37,725 bases of DNA from a virus (IMGVR_UViG_2721755725_000007), one strand, 5' to 3'. Positions 1 through 35,180 are shown, numbered from the stretch's first letter. Notes: generated from the letters alone by a model not told the origin. Translations and numbers: made by a program.

Positions 1-327
1 ATGACTAAAAATACTCGTTTTTCCCCCGAAGTCCGTCAGCGGGCGATTCGTATGGTTCTGGAAAGTCAGGATGAATATGACTCACAGTGGGCGGCAATTT
101 GTTCCATTGCCCCAAAGATTGGCTGTACGCCGGAGACTCTGCGTGTCTGGGTTCGCCAGCATGAGCGGGATACCGGGGGCGGTGATGGTGGGCTCACCAG
201 CGCTGAACGTCAGCGTCTGAAAGAGCTGGAACGTGAAAATCGTGAACTGCGCCGCAGTAACGATATCCTTCGCCAGGCTTCCGCTTATTTTGCGAAGGCG
301 GAGTTCGACCGCCTCTGGAAAAAATGA
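1..327 (+). CDS. IS629-type transposase OrfA (HTH subunit)
   Basis: 108-aa [26 protein letters not shown]... with C-terminal leucine-zipper-like [26 protein letters not shown], typical of IS3-family OrfA. Confidence 0.85.
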
Positions 328-1214
328 TGCCACTGCTGGATAAGCTGCGTGAGCAGTACGGGGTCGGACCGGTATGCAGCGAACTGCATATTGCCCCGTC
401 AACGTATTACCATTGTCAGCAACAGCGACATCATCCGGATAAACGCAGTGCCCGTGCGCAGCACGACGACTGGCTGAAGAGAGAGATACAGCGCGTATAC
501 GATGAAAATCATCAGGTGTACGGTGTGCGTAAAGTCTGGCGTCAGTTGTTACGGGAAGGAATCAGGGTGGCCAGATGTACAGTGGCACGTCTCATGGCGG
601 TTATGGGACTTGCCGGTGTTCTCCGGGGTAAAAAGGTCCGTACGACCATCAGCCGGAAAGCCGTTGCCGCAGGCGACCGCGTAAACCGTCAGTTCGTGGC
701 AGAACGACCTGACCAGCTGTGGGTGGCTGATTTTACTTACGTCAGCACATGGCAGGGCTTCGTCTATGTGGCGTTTATCATTGATGTGTTTGCCGGATAC
801 ATCGTGGGGTGGCGGGTCTCATCGTCTATGGAAACGACATTCGTGCTGGATGCGCTGGAGCAGGCGTTGTGGGCCCGTCGTCCGTCTGGCACCATCCATC
901 ACAGCGATAAAGGCTCTCAGTATGTGTCACTGGCCTATACGGAGCGACTAAAAGAAGCCGGATTACTGGCATCAACAGGGAGTACAGGCGACTCGTATGA
1001 CAACGCGATGGCTGAGAGCATCAATGGTCTTTACAAAGCGGAGGTAATACACCGTAAGAGCTGGAAAAACCGTGCAGAAGTGGAACTGGCCACACTCACG
1101 TGGGTGGACTGGTATAACAATCGACGATTGCTGGGAAGGCTGGGCCATACTCCTCCGGCAGAAGCAGAAAAAGCTTATTATGCTTCCATCGGAAACGATG
1201 ATCTGGCAGCCTGA
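324..1214 (+). CDS. IS629-type transposase OrfB (DDE catalytic domain; normally expressed as OrfAB by -1 frameshift)
   Basis: 296-aa ORF overlapping orfA in the -1 frame; contains DDE-integrase-like core (..WVADFTYV.. HSDKGSQY.. DNAMAES..). Confidence 0.85.
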
Positions 1215-1277
1215 GTTCACAGATAAAACACTCTCCAGGAAACCCGGGGCGGTTCACAGGCAGGTGAAAGTGAACCA

Positions 1278-2128: not shown

Positions 2129-2421
2129 GGGTGAGAATTTATATCGCCGGTCCAATGACGGGATATGAAAATTTCAACCGCGAGGCATTTCACAGGGCGG
2201 AAGAAGCACTGAAACGGGAAGGGCATACCGTCTTAAACCCGGCAGTACTTCCGGACGGGCTGACACAGCCGCACTACATGGATATTTGCATGGCAATGAT
2301 TCGTTGTGTGGATGCGGTTTATATGCTGAATGGCTGGCAGCGGTCAGCGGGCGCTAAGGCAGAGCTGGCACTGGCGGAGAAACTGGGGCATGCGGTGATT
2401 TATCAGGAGGTGGCTCAATGA
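2125..2421 (+). CDS. DUF4406-type (nucleoside 2-deoxyribosyltransferase-like) phage protein
   Basis: GTG start 8 nt after AGGAGGG; product MRVRIYIAGPMTG...GWQRSAGAKAELALAEKLG has the motif pattern of DUF4406 proteins of lambdoid phages. Confidence 0.7.
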   Translation: MRVRIYIAGPMTGYENFNREAFHRAEEALKREGHTVLNPAVLPDGLTQPHYMDICMAMIRCVDAVYMLNGWQRSAGAKAELALAEKLGHAVIYQEVAQ

Positions 2422-2879
2422 GAGAGGTTAACTATGAGGCGCTTCGTGAGGCAGCACAAAACTATCAGTCGACGCTGGCGTGGTATCAGGCTATCCCGGA
2501 CAGCCCAAATGCTGAACGGGATTGTGATGCGGCTCTTGCTGCGTTTAAGCGTCACATCCGTCATCGGGAAGCGGATATTATCGCTGATTTGCTGGATGGA
2601 CTGGAAGAAGCAAAATCACAACTCAACGAGCAACGTGAGTATTACGAAGGTGTTATCTCGGATGGGAGTAAGCGCATTGCTGAACTGGAAGCGCGGGAAG
2701 TTCAATTACCGACTCGCTACGACCTTCGATATGGACACCCGATAAATGCAGATGAGCGACAAGTCATGATACCTAAAGAAAATGGCAGTTGGCTTTACCT
2801 GATTGACCTAGAACACGCATTACGCGTCGCTGGCATTCGCATCAAAGGAGAGGAGCATGGAAATAAAACCAGAAGATGA
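2418..2879 (+). CDS. Ead/Ea22-like phage protein
   Basis: ATG after CAGGAGG; C-terminal segment IAELEAREVQLPTRYDLRYGHPINADERQVMIPKENGSWLYL...AGIRIKGE is characteristic of the Ead/Ea22 family. Confidence 0.7.
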   Translation: MREVNYEALREAAQNYQSTLAWYQAIPDSPNAERDCDAALAAFKRHIRHREADIIADLLDGLEEAKSQLNEQREYYEGVISDGSKRIAELEAREVQLPTRYDLRYGHPINADERQVMIPKENGSWLYLIDLEHALRVAGIRIKGEEHGNKTRR

Positions 2880-3213
2880 GTTAAGTAATATTGTTTTATT
2901 TCCGGTAAAAGAGGATGACCCACGTAATCAGGTTAATTTTCTTTATGAGCCATCGGAAAGACCATACTGCCATCACGCCTCTGTCCGGGTTGACGAAAAA
3001 GAGCGTCAGGTCCGCTGTAAAATCTGCGGTTCAGTTGTGGAGCCGTTTGACTGGATGCTCTCTGTGGCGAAAAGAGAAACCAGACTGGCAGATGATGTAA
3101 AGCTATTGCGCCAGGAGGAACAGGAAAGGCGAAAAAATATAGAAAAGTTAATTCAGATTGAGCGTAACGCGAAAGCGCGGATACGCAGGGCGTCAAAATC
3201 CAGAACTGAATAA
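2857..3213 (+). CDS. hypothetical phage protein with putative zinc-ribbon (C-H-H ... CxxC)
   Basis: ATG 2857 after AGGAG; product contains YCHHASVRVDEKERQVRCKICGS; basic coiled C-terminus. Confidence 0.55.
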   Translation: MEIKPEDELSNIVLFPVKEDDPRNQVNFLYEPSERPYCHHASVRVDEKERQVRCKICGSVVEPFDWMLSVAKRETRLADDVKLLRQEEQERRKNIEKLIQIERNAKARIRRASKSRTE

Positions 3214-3308
3214 TTAAATTCAGCACTGTTAAAAATTTAATCCTTAACCGGAGGGATTCCTGCACCCTCAGAACATAAGGAGACCGCCTGAAAGGGTGGT
3301 AATGAAAA

Positions 3309-3680
3309 ATGACTGAATTAACCAAAGAGCAATTAATCAAGGAAGCCAAATTAAAAATAGCGGTTGCGAACTGTTACCCTAATTCAGAGATGGCCAGGGT
3401 AGAGGGTGAGCTATTCAAAATTGCACTGGCATCGCTGGAAGCAGAACCGATAGCGTGGGAATGCGGTGAAAACATAATCCTGTTTAACCCTGACACAGTT
3501 GAAGCATACGCAAAACGTGCGGAAATATCACCTAAACCACTATTCTCCGCGCCGCCAGCGCTGGTAGTGCCTGATAAGTTGCCGCGTGAATACAGAAACG
3601 GTTGGCCTCTTGCGTATAGTGATTATGCTGAAGGCTGGAACGACTGCCGCGAAGCCATGCTTCAGGGAGATAAATCATGA
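3309..3680 (+). CDS. hypothetical phage protein (ea-region type)
   Basis: 123-aa ORF; stop overlaps next start (ATGA); no confident family assignment. Confidence 0.55.
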   Translation: MTELTKEQLIKEAKLKIAVANCYPNSEMARVEGELFKIALASLEAEPIAWECGENIILFNPDTVEAYAKRAEISPKPLFSAPPALVVPDKLPREYRNGWPLAYSDYAEGWNDCREAMLQGDKS

Positions 3681-4030
3681 TTAATCGTATCAAGCTGGAG
3701 CACATCCTCGAATATGCCAGGCAGCAGAGGCATATTGGTCAGCATTGTAAAATTCCACCAGGAGATATGGTTGAAATCATGGAGATTGCCATGCGCAAGG
3801 CTGGCAATTCTCCGGTAACTCCGGATGGTTGGATAAGCTGTAGTGAGCGAATGCCGCCAGTTGGTGTTGATGTACAACTGTTTGTGTCCAGCACGGGTGA
3901 ACAGTTTACAGGTTTTAACCTGGATAATACGGGTGACTTCCAGTATGCGCAGTGTTTCGGTGCGCCCATCGTGTGTGAAGCCACACACTGGATGCCGCTA
4001 CCAGAACCGCCGAAGGAGGTGCGCCAATGA
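3677..4030 (+). CDS. DUF551-domain phage protein
   Basis: Product has WISCSERMPP ... THWMPLPEPP, the signature I associate with DUF551 proteins of enterobacterial prophages. Confidence 0.7.
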   Translation: MINRIKLEHILEYARQQRHIGQHCKIPPGDMVEIMEIAMRKAGNSPVTPDGWISCSERMPPVGVDVQLFVSSTGEQFTGFNLDNTGDFQYAQCFGAPIVCEATHWMPLPEPPKEVRQ

Positions 4031-4110
4031 GCTGGCCTGAAGCCTTCTCAAATGTTGGTATTGCAATGGCGGTGGCGCTGGTTGTGTATTCGATTTGCCG
4101 CTGGGGATAA
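4027..4110 (+). CDS. candidate 27-aa hydrophobic peptide (MSWPEAFSNVGIAMAVALVVYSICRWG)
   Basis: ATG overlaps the DUF551 stop (ATGA); strong Shine-Dalgarno AAGGAGG at 4013-4019, 7 nt upstream; single predicted transmembrane helix; followed by a terminator hairpin. Confidence 0.35.
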   Translation: MSWPEAFSNVGIAMAVALVVYSICRWG

Positions 4111-4122
4111 TTTGCTGAAAAA

Positions 4123-4160
4123 AGATCCCGACACACACATGAGTCGGGGATCTTTGATTT
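4123..4160. terminator. bidirectional intrinsic terminator-like hairpin between convergent + strand operon and - strand toxin-antitoxin operon
   Basis: Inverted repeat AGATCCCGAC ... GTCGGGGATCT (one bulge) flanked by A-run upstream and TTTGATTT downstream. Confidence 0.45.
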
Positions 4161-4235
4161 ATATAGCCTACGAATCCGCCAGTAAGAGAGGGGGCGGACG
4201 GTTTATTCTAATACTGGAATTATGTGGGGAAAAGT

Positions 4236-4535
4236 TTATAAGAAATCGGTTTCATAACTTTGTCCGCCATGATAAATACCTGCGATAAAGACTTTATTGC
4301 CATCAACGGCAAAAGCAATAATCGTTCTGTGGCGGAAGTGAGTTACCCGCATTCCCTGTCGAATATCATCGCGTTTATTGCCCCGATGCGGGAATGTGGA
4401 AAACCCATCAAGATAATCAAGAAGTGCATTGGCATAATTGTCAGCAATGACGCTCCCTGCTTTCTCCGTTATATATCTGTGCAGGTTGATTATCTGCTGT
4501 TCGGCCTCAGGAGTAATGATGACTTCATATGTCAT
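4236..4535 (-). CDS. type II toxin, ParE/RelE superfamily
   Basis: 99-aa product MTYEVIITPEAEQQIINLHRYI...GMRVTHFRHRTIIAFAVDGNKVFIAGIYHGGQSYE; lies 5 nt downstream of the antitoxin gene on the - strand. Confidence 0.75.
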   Translation of the reverse strand: MTYEVIITPEAEQQIINLHRYITEKAGSVIADNYANALLDYLDGFSTFPHRGNKRDDIRQGMRVTHFRHRTIIAFAVDGNKVFIAGIYHGGQSYETDFL

Positions 4536-4540
4536 GCAGA

Positions 4541-4798
4541 TTACTTCCCGGCTCGAATCGCGGCGCGAACCTGTGAAATGGAGCGTCCGTTGTTTGGGTT
4601 TTCGCGGATAGAATCGAGAGATGGGGCGGCTGAATGCGTTAACCACGCTTCGATTGCTTTATCGCGCTCATTCAGTGCGCGAAGCCCTTCACGAATGACC
4701 TCACTTTCTGAAGCATAGGCACCGGAAGCCACACGGGCGCGCACCATGTCAGCCATCTCGTTAGTTAATGTAATGCTGAATTGTTGGGTTGTACGCAT
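4541..4798 (-). CDS. type II antitoxin, ribbon-helix-helix (ParD/CopG-like)
   Basis: 85-aa product MRTTQQFSITLTNEMADMVRARVASGAYASESEVIREGLRAL...; GGGAGG 7 nt upstream of the ATG on the - strand. Confidence 0.75.
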   Translation of the reverse strand: MRTTQQFSITLTNEMADMVRARVASGAYASESEVIREGLRALNERDKAIEAWLTHSAAPSLDSIRENPNNGRSISQVRAAIRAGK

Positions 4799-4851
4799 GG
4801 TAAACCTCCCGGAGTAGGATAGAACACTATTCGATGATAGCACACTGCCTG

Positions 4852-4878
4852 TTGACGACAACAGAAATCAGATACAAT
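4852..4878 (+). promoter_or_regulatory. candidate sigma70 promoter (TTGACG-N15-TACAAT) for the rightward DUF968/rusA/Q genes, divergent from the toxin-antitoxin promoter
   Basis: -35 TTGACG at 4852-4857, -10 TACAAT at 4873-4878; spacer is short (15 nt). On the opposite strand TTGTCG ... TATCAT could serve the antitoxin. Confidence 0.3.
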
Positions 4879-4933
4879 ATTGCCGCACGCCAGCCTGAAC
4901 AACTGGCACCTGCTGCGCCAGCAGAGACAACCG

Positions 4934-5212
4934 ATGGCGCACGATACCAGATTTTACAATTCGGATAACTCCGCCGCCCCTGCCAGCAGGCATGGGCGGC
5001 GTTCTCATGCATTCAAATCTGACTGGTTCCAGCATGACCCATGCACTGAAGAACAGGCCGAATGGCTGATCCAGTGCTACCGCAGACGTGGTTACGAGTT
5101 TCAGAAAGATCTCAGTTTCTATCGTCGTCACTGGATAATCTCTGTCAGGCTCCCTTATTCCGAATGCCCACCGCGTCCGTCCCGCACATTCCAGCAGCGC
5201 ATCTGGAGGTAA
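4934..5212 (+). CDS. hypothetical protein, translationally coupled to the DUF968 gene
   Basis: In-frame ATG 4934 of the ORF listed from 4880 (TTG); stop TAA 5210-5212 lies 1 nt before the DUF968 GTG, and the GGAGG serving DUF968 is inside its 3' end; weak own SD. Confidence 0.3.
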   Translation: MAHDTRFYNSDNSAAPASRHGRRSHAFKSDWFQHDPCTEEQAEWLIQCYRRRGYEFQKDLSFYRRHWIISVRLPYSECPPRPSRTFQQRIWR

Positions 5213-5213
5213 C

Positions 5214-6263
5214 GTGCGGGTATTACTTCGACCTGTTCTGGTGCCGGAACTCGGGATGGTGGTCCTTAAGCCGGGCCGTGAATCAATGTCAGCATTCCAT
5301 AACGGCAGAATATTGGTGGAGCCGGAACCGAAAAACATGCGCGGTCTGCCGTCCGGAGTCGTTCCCGCCGTTCGCCAGCCGCTGGCAGAGGATAAAACAT
5401 TACTGCCATTTTTCAGCGATGAGCGGGTTATTCGTGCTGCTGGTGGTGCTGGTGCACTGTCTGACTGGTTATTACGTCACGTGAAATCCTGCCAGTGGCC
5501 ACACGGCGATTATCATCACAGCGAAACGGTCATTCACCGTTACGGTACCGGCGCGATGGTGTTGTGCTGGCACTGCGACAACCAGCTGCGCGACCAGACA
5601 TCAGAATCACTCGATCAACTTGCTCAGCAGAATCTGGTTGCCTGGATGATTGATGTCATCCGTCACGCAATAAGCGGTACGCAGGAGAGGGAGTTATCGC
5701 TGGCCGAATTATCCTGGTGGGCGGCCTGCAATCAGGTGGTGGATGCACTACCTGAGGCAGTAGCGCGTCGTTCGCTGGGATTACCGGCGGAAAAAATCCG
5801 CTCCGTATACCGTGAGAGTGACATCGTACCGGGAGAACAGACAGCCATCAGCATACTGAAGCAGCGCACAAAAAATATTGCGCTGCCACTTCACGTCCAC
5901 CAGCAACAAAATCCACCACAGAAAAAAACGGTTGTCAGTATCGCCGTTGATCCGGAGTCTCCTGAATCGTTCATGAGGCGGCCTAAACGTCGCCGTTGGG
6001 TTAATGAGAAATACACGCGCTGGGTAAAGACACAGCCGTGTGCGTGTTGTGGTAAGCCAGCTGACGATCCGCATCACCTGATTGGTCATGGTCAGGGGGG
6101 AGTGGGAACAAAGGCCCACGATATTTTCACGCTACCGTTGTGCCGGGAGCACCACAACGAACTTCATGCAGACCCGCTGAAGTTTGAGAAAAAGTACGGC
6201 TCTCAGGTTGAGTTAATTTTTCGTTTTCTTGATCACGCCTTTGCGACTGGCGTGCTCGGGTAA
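5214..6263 (+). CDS. DUF968 phage protein (YdfU-like) with C-terminal HNH/zinc-finger-like motif
   Basis: 349-aa ORF, GTG start 5 nt after GGAGG; C-terminus PCACCGKPADDPHHLIGHGQGG...LCREHHNELHADP; same size and position (upstream of rusA/Q) as nin-region DUF968 proteins. Confidence 0.75.
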   Translation: MRVLLRPVLVPELGMVVLKPGRESMSAFHNGRILVEPEPKNMRGLPSGVVPAVRQPLAEDKTLLPFFSDERVIRAAGGAGALSDWLLRHVKSCQWPHGDYHHSETVIHRYGTGAMVLCWHCDNQLRDQTSESLDQLAQQNLVAWMIDVIRHAISGTQERELSLAELSWWAACNQVVDALPEAVARRSLGLPAEKIRSVYRESDIVPGEQTAISILKQRTKNIALPLHVHQQQNPPQKKTVVSIAVDPESPESFMRRPKRRRWVNEKYTRWVKTQPCACCGKPADDPHHLIGHGQGGVGTKAHDIFTLPLCREHHNELHADPLKFEKKYGSQVELIFRFLDHAFATGVLG

Positions 6264-33855: not shown

Positions 33856-33866
33856 GTGGGGTGAAT

Positions 33867-35180
33867 ATGGCAGTAAAGATTTCAGGTGTACTGAAAGACG
33901 GCACAGGAAAACCGGTAGAGAACTGCACCATTCAACTGAAAGCCAGACGGACCAGCAGCACGGTGGTGGTGAACACGGTGGCCTCTGAAAATCCGGATGA
34001 AGCCGGTCGTTACAGCATGGACGTTGAGTACGGTCAGTACAGCGTCATTCTGTTGGTGGAAGGATTCCCGCCGTCACATGCCGGGACCATCACCGTGTAT
34101 GAAGATTCCCGACCCGGTACGCTGAATGATTTTCTCGGTGCCATGACGGAGGGTGACGTCCGGCCGGAGGCACTGCGCCGTTTTGAACTGATGGTGGAAG
34201 AGGTGGCGCGTCACGCTGAGGAGGCGAAGAAGAATGCCGGAGAGGCGGAGACGTCAGCGAGGAATGCCGGCATATCAGCCAGTCAGGCAGAAGAGAGCGC
34301 TGCAAATGCTGACACTTCAGCAGGGGAGGCATCGGAGTCAGCCCGGCAGGCGGCAGAAAGTGCAGCCGCTGCAAAGCAGTCAGAGGATGCGTCCTCGTCC
34401 TCGGCTTCTGCGGCCGCTCAAAAAGCCAGTGAGTCATCACAAAGTGCAGCAGAAGCTGAATTGTCAAAAAAGACGGCAGAAAGTGCAGCCGGTAATGCAG
34501 CCAGGGATGCAACGACCGCAACAGAAAAAGCCCGGGAGTCAGCAGAAAGCGCACAGTCAGCGGAACAAAGCAGGATAGCGGCGGAAGAAGCCGTAAACAG
34601 AATCCCCACCGTGGTGGGACCTCCCGGGCCAAAGGGGGAACAGGGGCCCGCGGGTCCTCAGGGGCCGAAGGGTGATAAGGGAGAGCGCGGTGACACCGGC
34701 CCTGTCGGGGCAACCGGCGAACGGGGACCGGCAGGTGATGCTGGTCCGGCAGGCCCGCAGGGGCCGAAAGGTGACAGGGGAGAGCGGGGAGAGACCGGTC
34801 TGACGGGAAATGCAGGTCCACAGGGTCCAAAGGGAGACACCGGGGCAGCAGGCCCGGCAGGCCCACAGGGACCGAAAGGAGAAACAGGTGCGGCTGGCCC
34901 GGTGGGGGCAACCGGACCTCAGGGACCGAAGGGCGACCCGGGGGAGACACAAATACGGTTCCGTCTGGGGCCGGGAAACATTATTGAGACAAACAGCCAT
35001 GGCTGGTTCCCGGATACAGATGGCGCACTCATCACCGGACTGACCTTTCTTGACCCCAAAGATGCCACACAGGTTCAGGGGCTGTTTCGGCATTTGCAGG
35101 TCAGGTTTGGTGACGGGCCGTGGCAGGATGTTAAGGGGCTGAATGAAGTGGGCAGTGATACAGGCAGAACAGGAGAATGA
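33867..35180 (+). CDS. stf: side tail fibre protein (Stf-like N-terminus with collagen-like Gly-X-Y repeat region)
   Basis: N-terminus [38 protein letters not shown]... matches lambda Stf; Ala/Ser-rich repeats then about 35 Gly-X-Y triplets (about 34620-34930); ends at about 438 aa, much shorter than lambda Stf. Confidence 0.8.

What the first reader, a model, noticed from the sequence alone, without database searches (positions are those of the whole stretch)
4027..4110. 27-aa hydrophobic peptide ORF with consensus SD, translationally coupled to the DUF551 gene
AAGGAGG 7 nt upstream; ATG overlaps the DUF551 stop; product is essentially one transmembrane helix (GIAMAVALVVYSIC) ending in RWG; followed by a hairpin terminator. 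Size and hydrophobicity are reminiscent of small membrane toxins or regulatory peptides, and it sits next to the toxin-antitoxin module.
Basis: seen in the sequence. Interest (0 to 1): 0.4.

Follow-up and report, generated by a model that had tools for sequence, protein, structure and literature searches.

The report
Conserved 27-residue phage membrane peptide gene
This is a real but mostly unannotated 27-codon gene for a one-helix membrane peptide, carried at the end of early accessory-gene blocks by prophages in about 30% of complete E. coli genomes; its function is unknown, and only its position links it to the neighbouring toxin-antitoxin pair.

Summary
The ORF at 4027-4110 has AAGGAGG 7 nt upstream, and its ATG overlaps the DUF551 stop codon as ATGA. 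It encodes MSWPEAFSNVGIAMAVALVVYSICRWG. A hairpin that can terminate transcription in both directions follows 10 nt after the stop.

It is not a chance ORF. The 84 nt occur in 1620 of 5426 complete E. coli genomes (up to 7 copies each), in about 96 phage records including 933W, and in 180 plasmids. Nucleotide identity is 0.89 across the ORF and about 0.3 straight after the stop. I found 13 upstream and 16 downstream sequence families in 35 combinations. All 155 intact copies keep the ATGA overlap, and 153 keep a Shine-Dalgarno sequence.

Variation is mostly at third codon positions (pN/pS 0.27), indels are in frame, and the stop codon changes identity but not position. An antisense frame scores equally well on pN/pS but has no usable start codons.

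No Pfam, NCBIfam, PHROG or Rfam family matches, and no paper mentions the peptide. PGAP skips it.

Best reading: a translationally coupled, early-expressed, single-pass inner-membrane peptide that acts through a conserved face of small residues. The toxin reading is not supported. The slot downstream is a toxin-antitoxin hot spot (hok in 89 of 155 contexts, parDE in 23 of 155), but the association is positional.

The parts
3677..4030 (+). Upstream DUF551 gene (117 aa). Its last codons carry the Shine-Dalgarno sequence, and its TGA stop overlaps the peptide's ATG.
   Evidence: ORF list. PF04448 DUF551, E=4.8e-15. Annotated as WP_000610381.1 in the 100%-identical E. coli E2863 record.
4013..4019 (+). 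Shine-Dalgarno sequence AAGGAGG, 7 nt before the ATG.
   Evidence: Sequence. An SD-like core is kept in 153 of 155 intact homologous copies: AGGAGG at 7 nt in 66 and GGAGG at 10 nt in 70. Mean pairwise identity at -15..-1 is 0.69 across 34 different contexts.
4027..4030 (+). ATGA start/stop overlap that provides translational coupling.
   Evidence: Sequence. All 155 intact copies have TGA at ATG+1..+3, and in 142 of them that TGA ends an upstream ORF of at least 60 aa. The second residue is always encoded by an A-initial codon (T, S as AGC, N or I), as the overlap requires.
4027..4110 (+). 27-codon gene for the peptide MSWPEAFSNVGIAMAVALVVYSICRWG, a predicted single-pass membrane peptide.
   Evidence: Present in 1620 of 5426 complete E. 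coli genomes, 96 phage records and 180 plasmids. Identity is 0.89 inside the ORF against about 0.3 outside. Third-position entropy is 0.45-0.58 against 0.02-0.36 at positions 1 and 2, also in parts not constrained by the search patterns. pN/pS is 0.27. Indels are in frame. The stop keeps its position through 6 different stop contexts. Invariant residues are M1, W3, G11, A15, Y21, S22 and W26.
4117..4162 (.). Two-way intrinsic terminator: hairpin at 4121-4155, A-run 4117-4122 (the U-tract for the minus strand) and TTTGATTT on the plus strand. It is shared by the peptide's operon and the convergent parDE operon.
   Evidence: Folds at -16.6 (+) and -16.4 (-) kcal/mol, z about -3. It belongs to the parDE-type downstream module (family D1), not to the peptide module. 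Other contexts have other terminators, or a hok promoter instead.

Best explanation
Window 4027-4110 is a genuine protein-coding gene. It belongs to a narrow, uncharacterised family of 25-33-residue peptides in Escherichia/Shigella phages, prophages and phage-plasmids (rarely in Salmonella).

Shown or strongly inferred:
- It is the last cistron of an early accessory-gene block (ea/nin-type genes, here in the pR operon between the replication genes and DUF968-RusA-Q).
- It is translated by coupling to whatever gene lies upstream, through a conserved Shine-Dalgarno sequence plus an ATGA overlap.
- Its product is one hydrophobic helix (about V10-C24) bracketed by interfacial aromatics (W3, Y21, W26). 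The only basic residue is at the C-terminal end, so an N-out/C-in single-pass inner-membrane topology is expected.

Inferred mechanism (not shown):
- The peptide is made early in lytic growth or after induction.
- It acts by packing its invariant small-residue helix face (S/T8, G11, A15, S22) against another membrane protein of the host or phage, or against itself. This is how bacterial small membrane proteins such as AcrZ, MgtS and KdpF work. I do not think it acts by killing the cell.
- The conserved 100-bp module (SD plus ORF) also acts as a homology island at which lambdoid accessory modules are reshuffled.
For: Coding on the + strand:
- A step-like conservation profile matches SD-to-stop exactly.
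- 13 upstream and 16 downstream families occur in 35 combinations.
- The ATGA overlap is present in all 155 intact copies, and an SD in 153.
- 165 of 180 copies are canonical and intact. Others are in-frame 6-nt deletions or expansions, and only about 4 are disrupted.
- Variation is dominated by third positions even outside the pattern-constrained codons.
- Divergent pairs (for example window against Av-05: 23 nt differences, 14 at position 3, 8 aa changes) keep far more protein identity than random substitutions would (P<0.005 in many pairs).
- The stop codon alternates between TAA and TGA at a fixed position.
- Frames +2, +3 and -3 carry stops in most variants, and frame -1 in 12 of 69.
- The antisense frame that shares wobble positions has no start codon covering the module in most contexts.
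- The RNA shows no unusual structure (z=+0.76) and no Rfam hit.

Membrane peptide:
- Hydropathy and the invariant residues lying on one helix face.
- Amino-acid replacements are hydrophobic-conservative (mean |dKD| 2.43 against 3.49 for the antisense reading).
- One variant carries a basic C-terminal tail, KNVRRD (P0084).

Early-operon position:
- Annotated contexts in pR-side and pL-side operons, always on the operon's strand.

Not a known family:
-.
Against: - There is no expression or localisation evidence. The peptide is absent from the supplementary lists of three EHEC Ribo-seq studies, although early prophage genes are silent in lysogens.
- It is absent from the K-12 Rac, Qin and DLP12 prophages, so K-12 small-protein surveys are uninformative.
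- The hydrophobic core is short. An unweighted sum of Hessa central values is about +2 kcal/mol for 17-19-residue windows, so membrane insertion is predicted but not certain.
- No partner protein is identified, so the helix-packing mechanism rests on residue conservation and on analogy.
- pN/pS alone cannot tell the sense strand from one antisense frame.
Confidence: 0.55

Rival explanations
1. It is a membrane-damaging toxin, either a type I-like toxin (like Hok, TisB or Ibs) or a third, toxic component associated with the adjacent toxin-antitoxin locus.
For: The peptide is small and hydrophobic. It lies next to parDE here, and next to hok/sok in 89 of 155 or parDE in 23 of 155 contexts elsewhere. 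There are weak TM-type similarities to a glycine-zipper region (PF19029, E=0.04). Repeated small residues could support oligomerisation.
Against: - No Hok_Gef or other toxin family match.
- No antisense RNA family, no promoter-like site reading across the ORF on the opposite strand in 3200-5300 (the only minus-strand site is the parDE promoter-like site at 4861-4834, which reads away from it), and no conserved flank that could encode an antitoxin; identity falls to background immediately outside SD-to-stop.
- It has a strong, exposed SD and coupled translation, whereas type I toxins are translationally repressed (own knowledge).
- It occurs without any TA, in pL-side contexts, in the virulent phage Av-05 and in phage-plasmids.
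- ParD/ParE is a complete canonical pair on the other strand behind a terminator.
Confidence: 0.12
2. It is a membrane anchor or partner subunit for the protein encoded immediately upstream. Translational coupling would deliver the two in a fixed ratio, tethering the ea-type protein to the inner membrane.
For: The ATGA coupling to an upstream ORF of at least 60 aa is nearly universal (142 of 155). In one E. coli prophage next to rcsB, the peptide is fused in frame to the C-terminus of an Ea22-like protein (P0086). This shows it can serve as a C-terminal tail anchor.
Against: The upstream proteins fall into several sequence groups with different or no Pfam matches (DUF551; a 114-167-aa group without Pfam match; 933W L0139; Av05_00123). 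I ran no all-against-all comparison, and three of the groups share a C-terminal stretch. A single specific protein-protein interface is therefore unlikely, and the in-frame fusion is rare.
Confidence: 0.15
3. The ORF is incidental. The 84 bp would be conserved as a DNA or RNA element: a recombination linker between lambdoid modules, a structured RNA, an antisense gene, or a terminal ORF whose translation (not its product) tunes the downstream terminator or hok promoter.
For: Homology breakpoints coincide with the element's ends, and it joins many different modules. The antisense wobble-coincident frame is open in 68 of 69 variants with pN/pS 0.24. The stop lies 10 nt before the hairpin.
Against: - A pure DNA linker would not show threefold periodic variation, conservative hydrophobic replacements, a conserved start with SD, or a position-conserved stop of changing identity.
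- The antisense frame has no usable start codons, and its stop-to-stop length varies from 37 to 144 aa with context.
- RNA folding is unremarkable (z=+0.76) and there is no Rfam match.
- The downstream element differs between contexts (terminator, hok promoter or another gene), so a fixed cis-regulatory role is unlikely.
- A linker role can coexist with coding.
Confidence: 0.06

Closest known systems
Bacterial small single-pass membrane proteins that modulate larger membrane proteins (AcrZ, MgtS, KdpF, CydX, MgrB). This comparison rests on my own knowledge.
   Same: It is 50 aa or shorter with one hydrophobic helix and no signal peptide, and its conserved small residues lie on one helix face. 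It is routinely missed by annotation pipelines. There is a weak sub-threshold similarity to KdpF (TIGR02115, 14.7 bits against a cut-off of 26.85).
   Different: There is no significant sequence similarity to any of them. It is phage-borne and multi-copy, and it is expressed from early phage operons by coupling rather than from its own regulated promoter. No partner is known.
Type I toxin-antitoxin toxins (Hok/Gef, TisB, IbsC, ShoB, DinQ, ZorO).
   Same: Similar size and hydrophobicity. It is physically adjacent to hok/sok in most contexts.
   Different: No PF01848 hit, no antisense RNA, and no long structured leader. It has a strong SD and an ATGA overlap. Its helix is rich in Ala, Val and Gly, with no polar or charged tail.
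Small membrane proteins made by phages for superinfection exclusion or host takeover (T4 Imm, P22 SieA, HK97 gp15, Qin YdfD). This comparison rests on my own knowledge.
   Same: It is phage-encoded and membrane-embedded, lies in accessory/moron regions, and is not essential for the basic phage cycle.
   Different: Those proteins are larger (about 60-160 aa, often more than one TM helix) and unrelated in sequence. Several are expressed from the prophage, whereas this one sits inside early lytic operons.
Conserved boundary or linker sequences at module junctions of lambdoid phages. This is the mosaic-genome concept, from my own knowledge.
   Same: It is a short island of high identity flanked by unrelated sequence, recombined with many partners.
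   Different: Here the island is a complete SD-to-stop gene whose substitution pattern shows selection on the protein.

Membership tests
Type I toxin-antitoxin toxin (Hok/Gef and similar) | Small hydrophobic, membrane-targeted peptide | tested here: met
   27 aa, GRAVY 0.98, hydrophobic core V10-C24.
Type I toxin-antitoxin toxin (Hok/Gef and similar) | Sequence membership in a known toxin family (for example PF01848 Hok_Gef) | tested here: not met
   No toxin family reached E of 1 or better in Pfam, NCBIfam or PHROGs. PADLOC was not searched.
Type I toxin-antitoxin toxin (Hok/Gef and similar) | Cognate antisense RNA antitoxin that travels with the toxin gene | tested here: not met
   No Rfam match in 3800-4900 at E of 1 or better. 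The only promoter-like site on the minus strand in 3200-5300 is at 4861-4834 and reads away from the ORF. Flanks are unrelated between contexts, with identity about 0.3 directly outside SD-to-stop.
Type I toxin-antitoxin toxin (Hok/Gef and similar) | Translation kept off by mRNA structure or a leader, with no freely accessible SD | tested here: not met
   Consensus AGGAGG/GGAGG at 7-10 nt plus an ATGA overlap in 153-155 of 155 copies. Local RNA fold is unremarkable, z=+0.76.
Type I toxin-antitoxin toxin (Hok/Gef and similar) | Toxic on expression | not testable with these tools
   Needs an induction experiment.
Component of the adjacent type II ParD/ParE module | Co-inheritance with parDE, on the same operon or strand | tested here: not met
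   parE is found within 700 nt in only 23 of 155 contexts. Here it is on the opposite strand behind a two-way terminator.
DUF551 (PF04448), the name PGAP gives to contig-edge fragments of this peptide | Match to the DUF551 domain model | tested here: not met
   The peptide has no PF04448 hit. It is read in a different frame from the DUF551 gene, which ends at 4030. The 'DUF551, partial' labels on fragments such as P0002 and P0016 appear to be mislabels.
Small single-pass inner-membrane proteins (functional class, not a sequence family) | 50 aa or shorter, with one predicted TM helix and flanking interfacial or charged residues | tested here: met
   Hydropathy, W3/Y21/W26 and R25. A variant has a basic C-terminal tail (P0084).
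Small single-pass inner-membrane proteins (functional class, not a sequence family) | Actually translated, inserted in the membrane, and bound to a partner | not testable with these tools
   No Ribo-seq or proteomic record found. Structure prediction was not possible because the peptide is under 30 aa.
Any curated protein or RNA family | Significant match to Pfam-A, NCBIfam, PHROGs v4 or Rfam 15 | tested here: not met
   The best hits are phrog_4612 at E=0.019 and TIGR02115 at 14.7 bits (cut-off 26.85); nothing in Rfam. Only 23 cluster representatives out of 1.84 billion reach E of 1e-3 or better, and those I retrieved (19 sequences) are short ORFs or fusions containing this same peptide.

The most novel reading that the evidence does not exclude
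The peptide may be an early phage counter-measure aimed at membrane-acting killers. In this reading it inserts beside Hok-type toxins, or beside membrane-depolarising abortive-infection effectors, and blunts them during the phage's own lytic cycle. That would explain why it is persistently kept as the gene immediately upstream of hok/sok (89 of 155) or other TA modules, and why virulent phages such as Av-05 also carry it. A more general version is that it is a new class of phage small-protein inhibitor of a host inner-membrane machine.
Probability: 0.07. Interest if true: 0.7.

Novelty: new member of a known kind. Interest (0 to 1): 0.36.

Why it matters
The gene is present in about 30% of complete E. 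coli genomes, often in several copies, and in the reference Stx2 phage 933W. Despite that, RefSeq/PGAP does not call it, no curated family holds it, and I found no paper that mentions it. It adds a well-supported member to the still small set of conserved phage small membrane proteins, and gives a concrete, cheap target for functional work in Shiga-toxin phages.

Two practical points follow:
1. Annotation pipelines both miss it and mislabel its fragments as 'DUF551'.
2. For ORFs this short, pN/pS cannot distinguish the true frame from the antisense frame that shares wobble positions. Start, stop and context evidence are needed to decide.

The gene also marks a recombination junction and a toxin-antitoxin insertion hot spot in lambdoid genomes.

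Tried and rejected
- The search for homologous proteins and the search for related loci refuse a 27-aa query. I worked around this with degenerate DNA patterns, 30-aa and 43-aa extended translations and tblastn.
- My first codon-position statistics were biased, because the search patterns fixed positions 1 and 2. I redid them on the unconstrained codons only and on blastn-ascertained copies.
- pN/pS as proof of the coding strand was rejected. The antisense frame -2 gives 0.24 against 0.27 for the sense frame. The question was settled by the start-codon and ORF-extent analysis.
- Antisense gene (for example Min27 ORF82): rejected.
- Structured RNA: rejected.
- The cluster look-up suggested 121- and 185-aa 'DUF551' proteins contain the peptide. 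Their sequences do not contain it, so this is a clustering or labelling artefact.
- K-12 homologue with Ribo-seq support: none in Rac, Qin or DLP12. e14 and the other prophages were not checked.
- Literature: the peptide string, DUF551, hokW/933W and small-protein/prophage searches found nothing on this peptide. Three EHEC Ribo-seq supplements were negative.
- The genome-contig scan found it in only E. coli and Shigella flexneri among the species representatives. There were also two likely contaminant contigs and three chance matches, against about 1.6 expected by my own estimate.
- Structure prediction was not attempted, because the tool's minimum length is 30 aa.

Full report
**1. What is at the coordinates**

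The sequence is as described:
- AAGGAGG lies at 4013-4019, followed by 7 nt and the ATG at 4027.
- The preceding gene (3677-4030, 117 aa, Pfam DUF551 at E=4.8e-15) ends in TGA at 4028-4030, so start and stop overlap as ATGA.
- The ORF ends with TAA at 4108-4110 and encodes MSWPEAFSNVGIAMAVALVVYSICRWG.
- Ten nucleotides later there is a hairpin at 4121-4155. It folds at about -16.5 kcal/mol on either strand (z about -3) and has a U-tract on both sides. It can therefore terminate both this operon and the convergent parDE operon (parE 4236-4535, parD 4541-4798, minus strand).
- A perfect AGGAGG-N5-9-ATG occurs only four times in the whole window. Two of the other three sit at plausible starts of long ORFs; the third starts a 114-aa ORF out of frame inside a longer ORF.

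**2. Genomic setting**

The window is 100% identical over this stretch to a lambdoid prophage of E. coli E2863. The order there is: IS1203 / truncated DUF1627 / DNA-binding / DUF4406 / Ea22-like / two hypothetical genes / DUF551 / [this ORF, not annotated] / terminator / parE and parD (reverse strand) / hypothetical / DUF968 / RusA / antiterminator. The ORF is thus the last cistron of the accessory (nin- or ea-like) block of the rightward early operon.

**3. Conservation**

- The 84 nt alone match 1620 of 5426 complete E. coli genomes. There are 3086 places, up to 7 per genome, and 160 are on plasmids.
- tblastn finds the peptide in 96 phage records. These include 933W, VT2-Sakai, Min27, BP-4795 and ArgO145.
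- More divergent copies occur in the virulent Vequintavirinae phage Av-05 and in 180 plasmids (154 E. coli, 25 Salmonella, 1 Klebsiella). Of those plasmids, 174 are non-mobilizable, and most of the listed ones are about 90-105 kb, so they are probably phage-plasmids.
- Among one genome per species, only E. coli and Shigella flexneri carry it.
- Protein searches add E. albertii and a Salmonella fragment.
- Only 23 cluster representatives out of 1.84 billion reach E of 1e-3 or better.

In 34 representatives of different flank combinations, mean pairwise identity is as follows:

| Region | Identity |
|---|---|
| ORF | 0.89 |
| -15..-1 (SD and spacer) | 0.69 |
| First 15 nt after the stop | 0.31 |
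| Further out | about 0.3 |

The flanks fall into 13 upstream and 16 downstream sequence families, in 35 combinations. In every annotated record I opened, the peptide ORF fills an unannotated gap directly after the upstream gene's stop codon, or after it and before the next annotated feature.

**4. Is it coding, and on which strand?**

- Of 180 copies in fetched loci, 165 are the canonical 27-codon ATG form.
- A few copies carry in-frame 6-nt deletions (25 codons) or a GTG start. Three lost the stop and run on for 6-13 codons. About four are disrupted, by a 1-nt deletion at the start or a premature stop.
- Some database variants carry in-frame (GCNATG)n expansions inside the helix.
- My DNA patterns fixed codon positions 1 and 2, so I recomputed variability only on codons not constrained by the pattern that found each locus. 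Third-position entropy is 0.45, 0.28 and 0.58 in three such subsets, against 0.14/0.14, 0.10/0.02 and 0.36/0.19 for positions 1 and 2.
- Divergent pairs obtained by blastn or tblastn show the same bias. They keep far more protein identity than random substitutions would. For example, window against Av-05 has 23 differences, 14 at position 3 and 8 aa changes, and none of 5000 simulations did as well.
- Overall pN/pS is 0.27.
- A trap: the antisense frame whose wobble positions coincide with the sense frame is open in 68 of 69 variants and has pN/pS 0.24. These statistics therefore cannot assign the strand.
- The strand is assigned by other evidence:
  - All 155 intact copies have the ATGA overlap, and in 142 that TGA ends an upstream ORF of at least 60 aa.
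  - 153 of 155 have an SD core at 7-10 nt.
  - The stop keeps its position while its identity changes through six stop contexts.
  - The conserved block runs from SD to stop.
  - The gene always lies on the strand of the surrounding operon.
  - In the antisense frame, most contexts have no ATG at all. The first NTG usually lies beyond the conserved block, and stop-to-stop lengths vary from 37 to 144 aa.
- The RNA has no unusual fold (z=+0.76) and no Rfam match.

**5. The product**

- Invariant residues among 15 diverse variants are M1, W3, G11, A15, Y21, S22 and W26. P4, E/D5, A6, C24 and R25 are nearly invariant.
- The hydrophobic core (about V10-C24) is bracketed by aromatic residues about 23 positions apart. 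That spacing fits one membrane span.
- The only basic residue is C-terminal, and one variant adds a KNVRRD tail (P0084). By the positive-inside rule (my own knowledge) this points to N-out/C-in topology.
- G11, A15 and S22, together with S/T8, fall within about 60 degrees on a helical wheel. This is a small-residue packing face.
- No Pfam, NCBIfam or PHROG family is matched. The best hits are sub-threshold TM-like similarities.
- The exact peptide is deposited in some GenBank records as 'hypothetical', 'bacteriophage' or 'prophage' protein (for example BAI35516.1). PGAP omits it in RefSeq and labels contig-edge fragments 'DUF551 domain-containing protein, partial'.

**6. Relation to the toxin-antitoxin module**

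- Within 700 nt downstream, 89 of 155 contexts have hok (same strand), 23 have parE (opposite strand) and 13 have DUF4222 followed by xis.
- In 933W-type contexts, by my reading of the sequence, the hok promoter and mRNA leader begin right after the peptide's stop, with no terminator between.
- However, two unrelated TA types occupy the slot. The peptide also occurs with no TA at all, in pL-side contexts, in Av-05 and in phage-plasmids.
- Nothing outside SD-to-stop is co-conserved with it.
- The sample is phylogenetically non-independent, so I treat the association as positional.

**7. Mechanism**

- Shown or strongly supported: it is a real gene with coupled translation at the end of early operons, and its product is a hydrophobic single helix.
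- Inferred: it is a small inner-membrane protein that acts by helix-helix packing with a membrane partner early in lytic growth. The module also serves as a homology island for recombination.
- Rivals:
  - Toxin: disfavoured by the strong SD, the lack of an antitoxin RNA and the lack of a family match.
  - Anchor for the upstream protein: supported only by the near-universal coupling and one in-frame Ea22-like fusion in a prophage next to rcsB, and disfavoured by the diversity of upstream proteins.
  - Non-coding element: disfavoured by section 4.

**8. Novelty and score**

This is an uncharacterised but ordinary kind of thing: a phage small membrane protein. I found no paper on it and no Ribo-seq listing. 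It is absent from the K-12 prophages Rac, Qin and DLP12.

I file it as a new member of a known kind, with moderate interest (0.36). It is widespread, cleanly supported and present in Stx phages, but its function is open.

Noticed in passing
window 9148-9548: A tRNA (9148-9207, +), the STnc100 sRNA (9293-9485, +, 144 bits) and the AgvB anti-GcvB sRNA (9487-9548, -, 96 bits) sit directly after the DNA methyltransferase gene (8043-9101).
   Followed up: no
window 1-1220 and 1278-1814: An IS1203 (IS3-family) element, with its ALIL frameshift pseudoknot at 282-398, is inserted into the prophage and truncates a DUF1627 gene.
   Followed up: no
window 4117-4162, 4236-4798, 4834-4861: A complete ParD/ParE pair lies on the minus strand, with a promoter-like site (TTGTCG-16-TATCAT). 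It converges on the peptide's operon and shares a two-way terminator with it.
   Followed up: partly
L187 (933W) 2501-2950; 155 contexts in fetched loci: The slot right after the peptide gene is a toxin-antitoxin hot spot: hok/sok in 89 of 155 contexts and parDE in 23 of 155. In 933W-type phages the hok promoter appears to start immediately after the peptide's stop with no terminator, so early-operon read-through would enter hok.
   Followed up: partly
L195 4001-4432 (E. coli prophage next to rcsB): The most divergent homologue, MSWPDAFAIAGVAMSIALIVFAICRWG, is fused in frame to the C-terminus of an Ea22-like protein (143 aa), while keeping an internal GGAG and ATG.
   Followed up: partly
proteins P0065, P0080, P0081: In-frame hexanucleotide expansions inside the helix (AMAMAMAMAV, AVAVAVAV) lengthen the peptide to 31-35 aa. 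This suggests slippage at the GCNATG/GCNGTG repeats.
   Followed up: no
L004 (Min27) 2178-2750, minus strand: Min27 ORF82 is annotated on the opposite strand across the peptide gene. The antisense frame is open in 68 of 69 variants and shows pN/pS 0.24 purely because it shares wobble positions, so ORF82 is probably a mis-call.
   Followed up: yes
database entries P0002, P0003, P0016 and others: PGAP labels contig-edge fragments of this peptide 'DUF551 domain-containing protein, partial', although it is a separate gene in another frame. The 90% clusters also lump it with true DUF551 proteins that do not contain it.
   Followed up: yes
window 34234-34578 (+), inside 33861-35180 (+): A 114-aa ATG ORF with a perfect AGGAGG 9 nt upstream lies out of frame inside a 439-aa ORF.
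   Followed up: no
L175 (Segatella copri MAG contig), L178 (Xanthomonas pisi contig), H65/H171 (Actinobacillus phage vB_Apl-pPE4): Records assigned to unrelated taxa carry near-identical copies of this E. coli-phage module. In the two contigs, whose flanks I read, the flanking sequence is also E. coli-phage-like. These probably reflect contamination or mis-binning.
   Followed up: no
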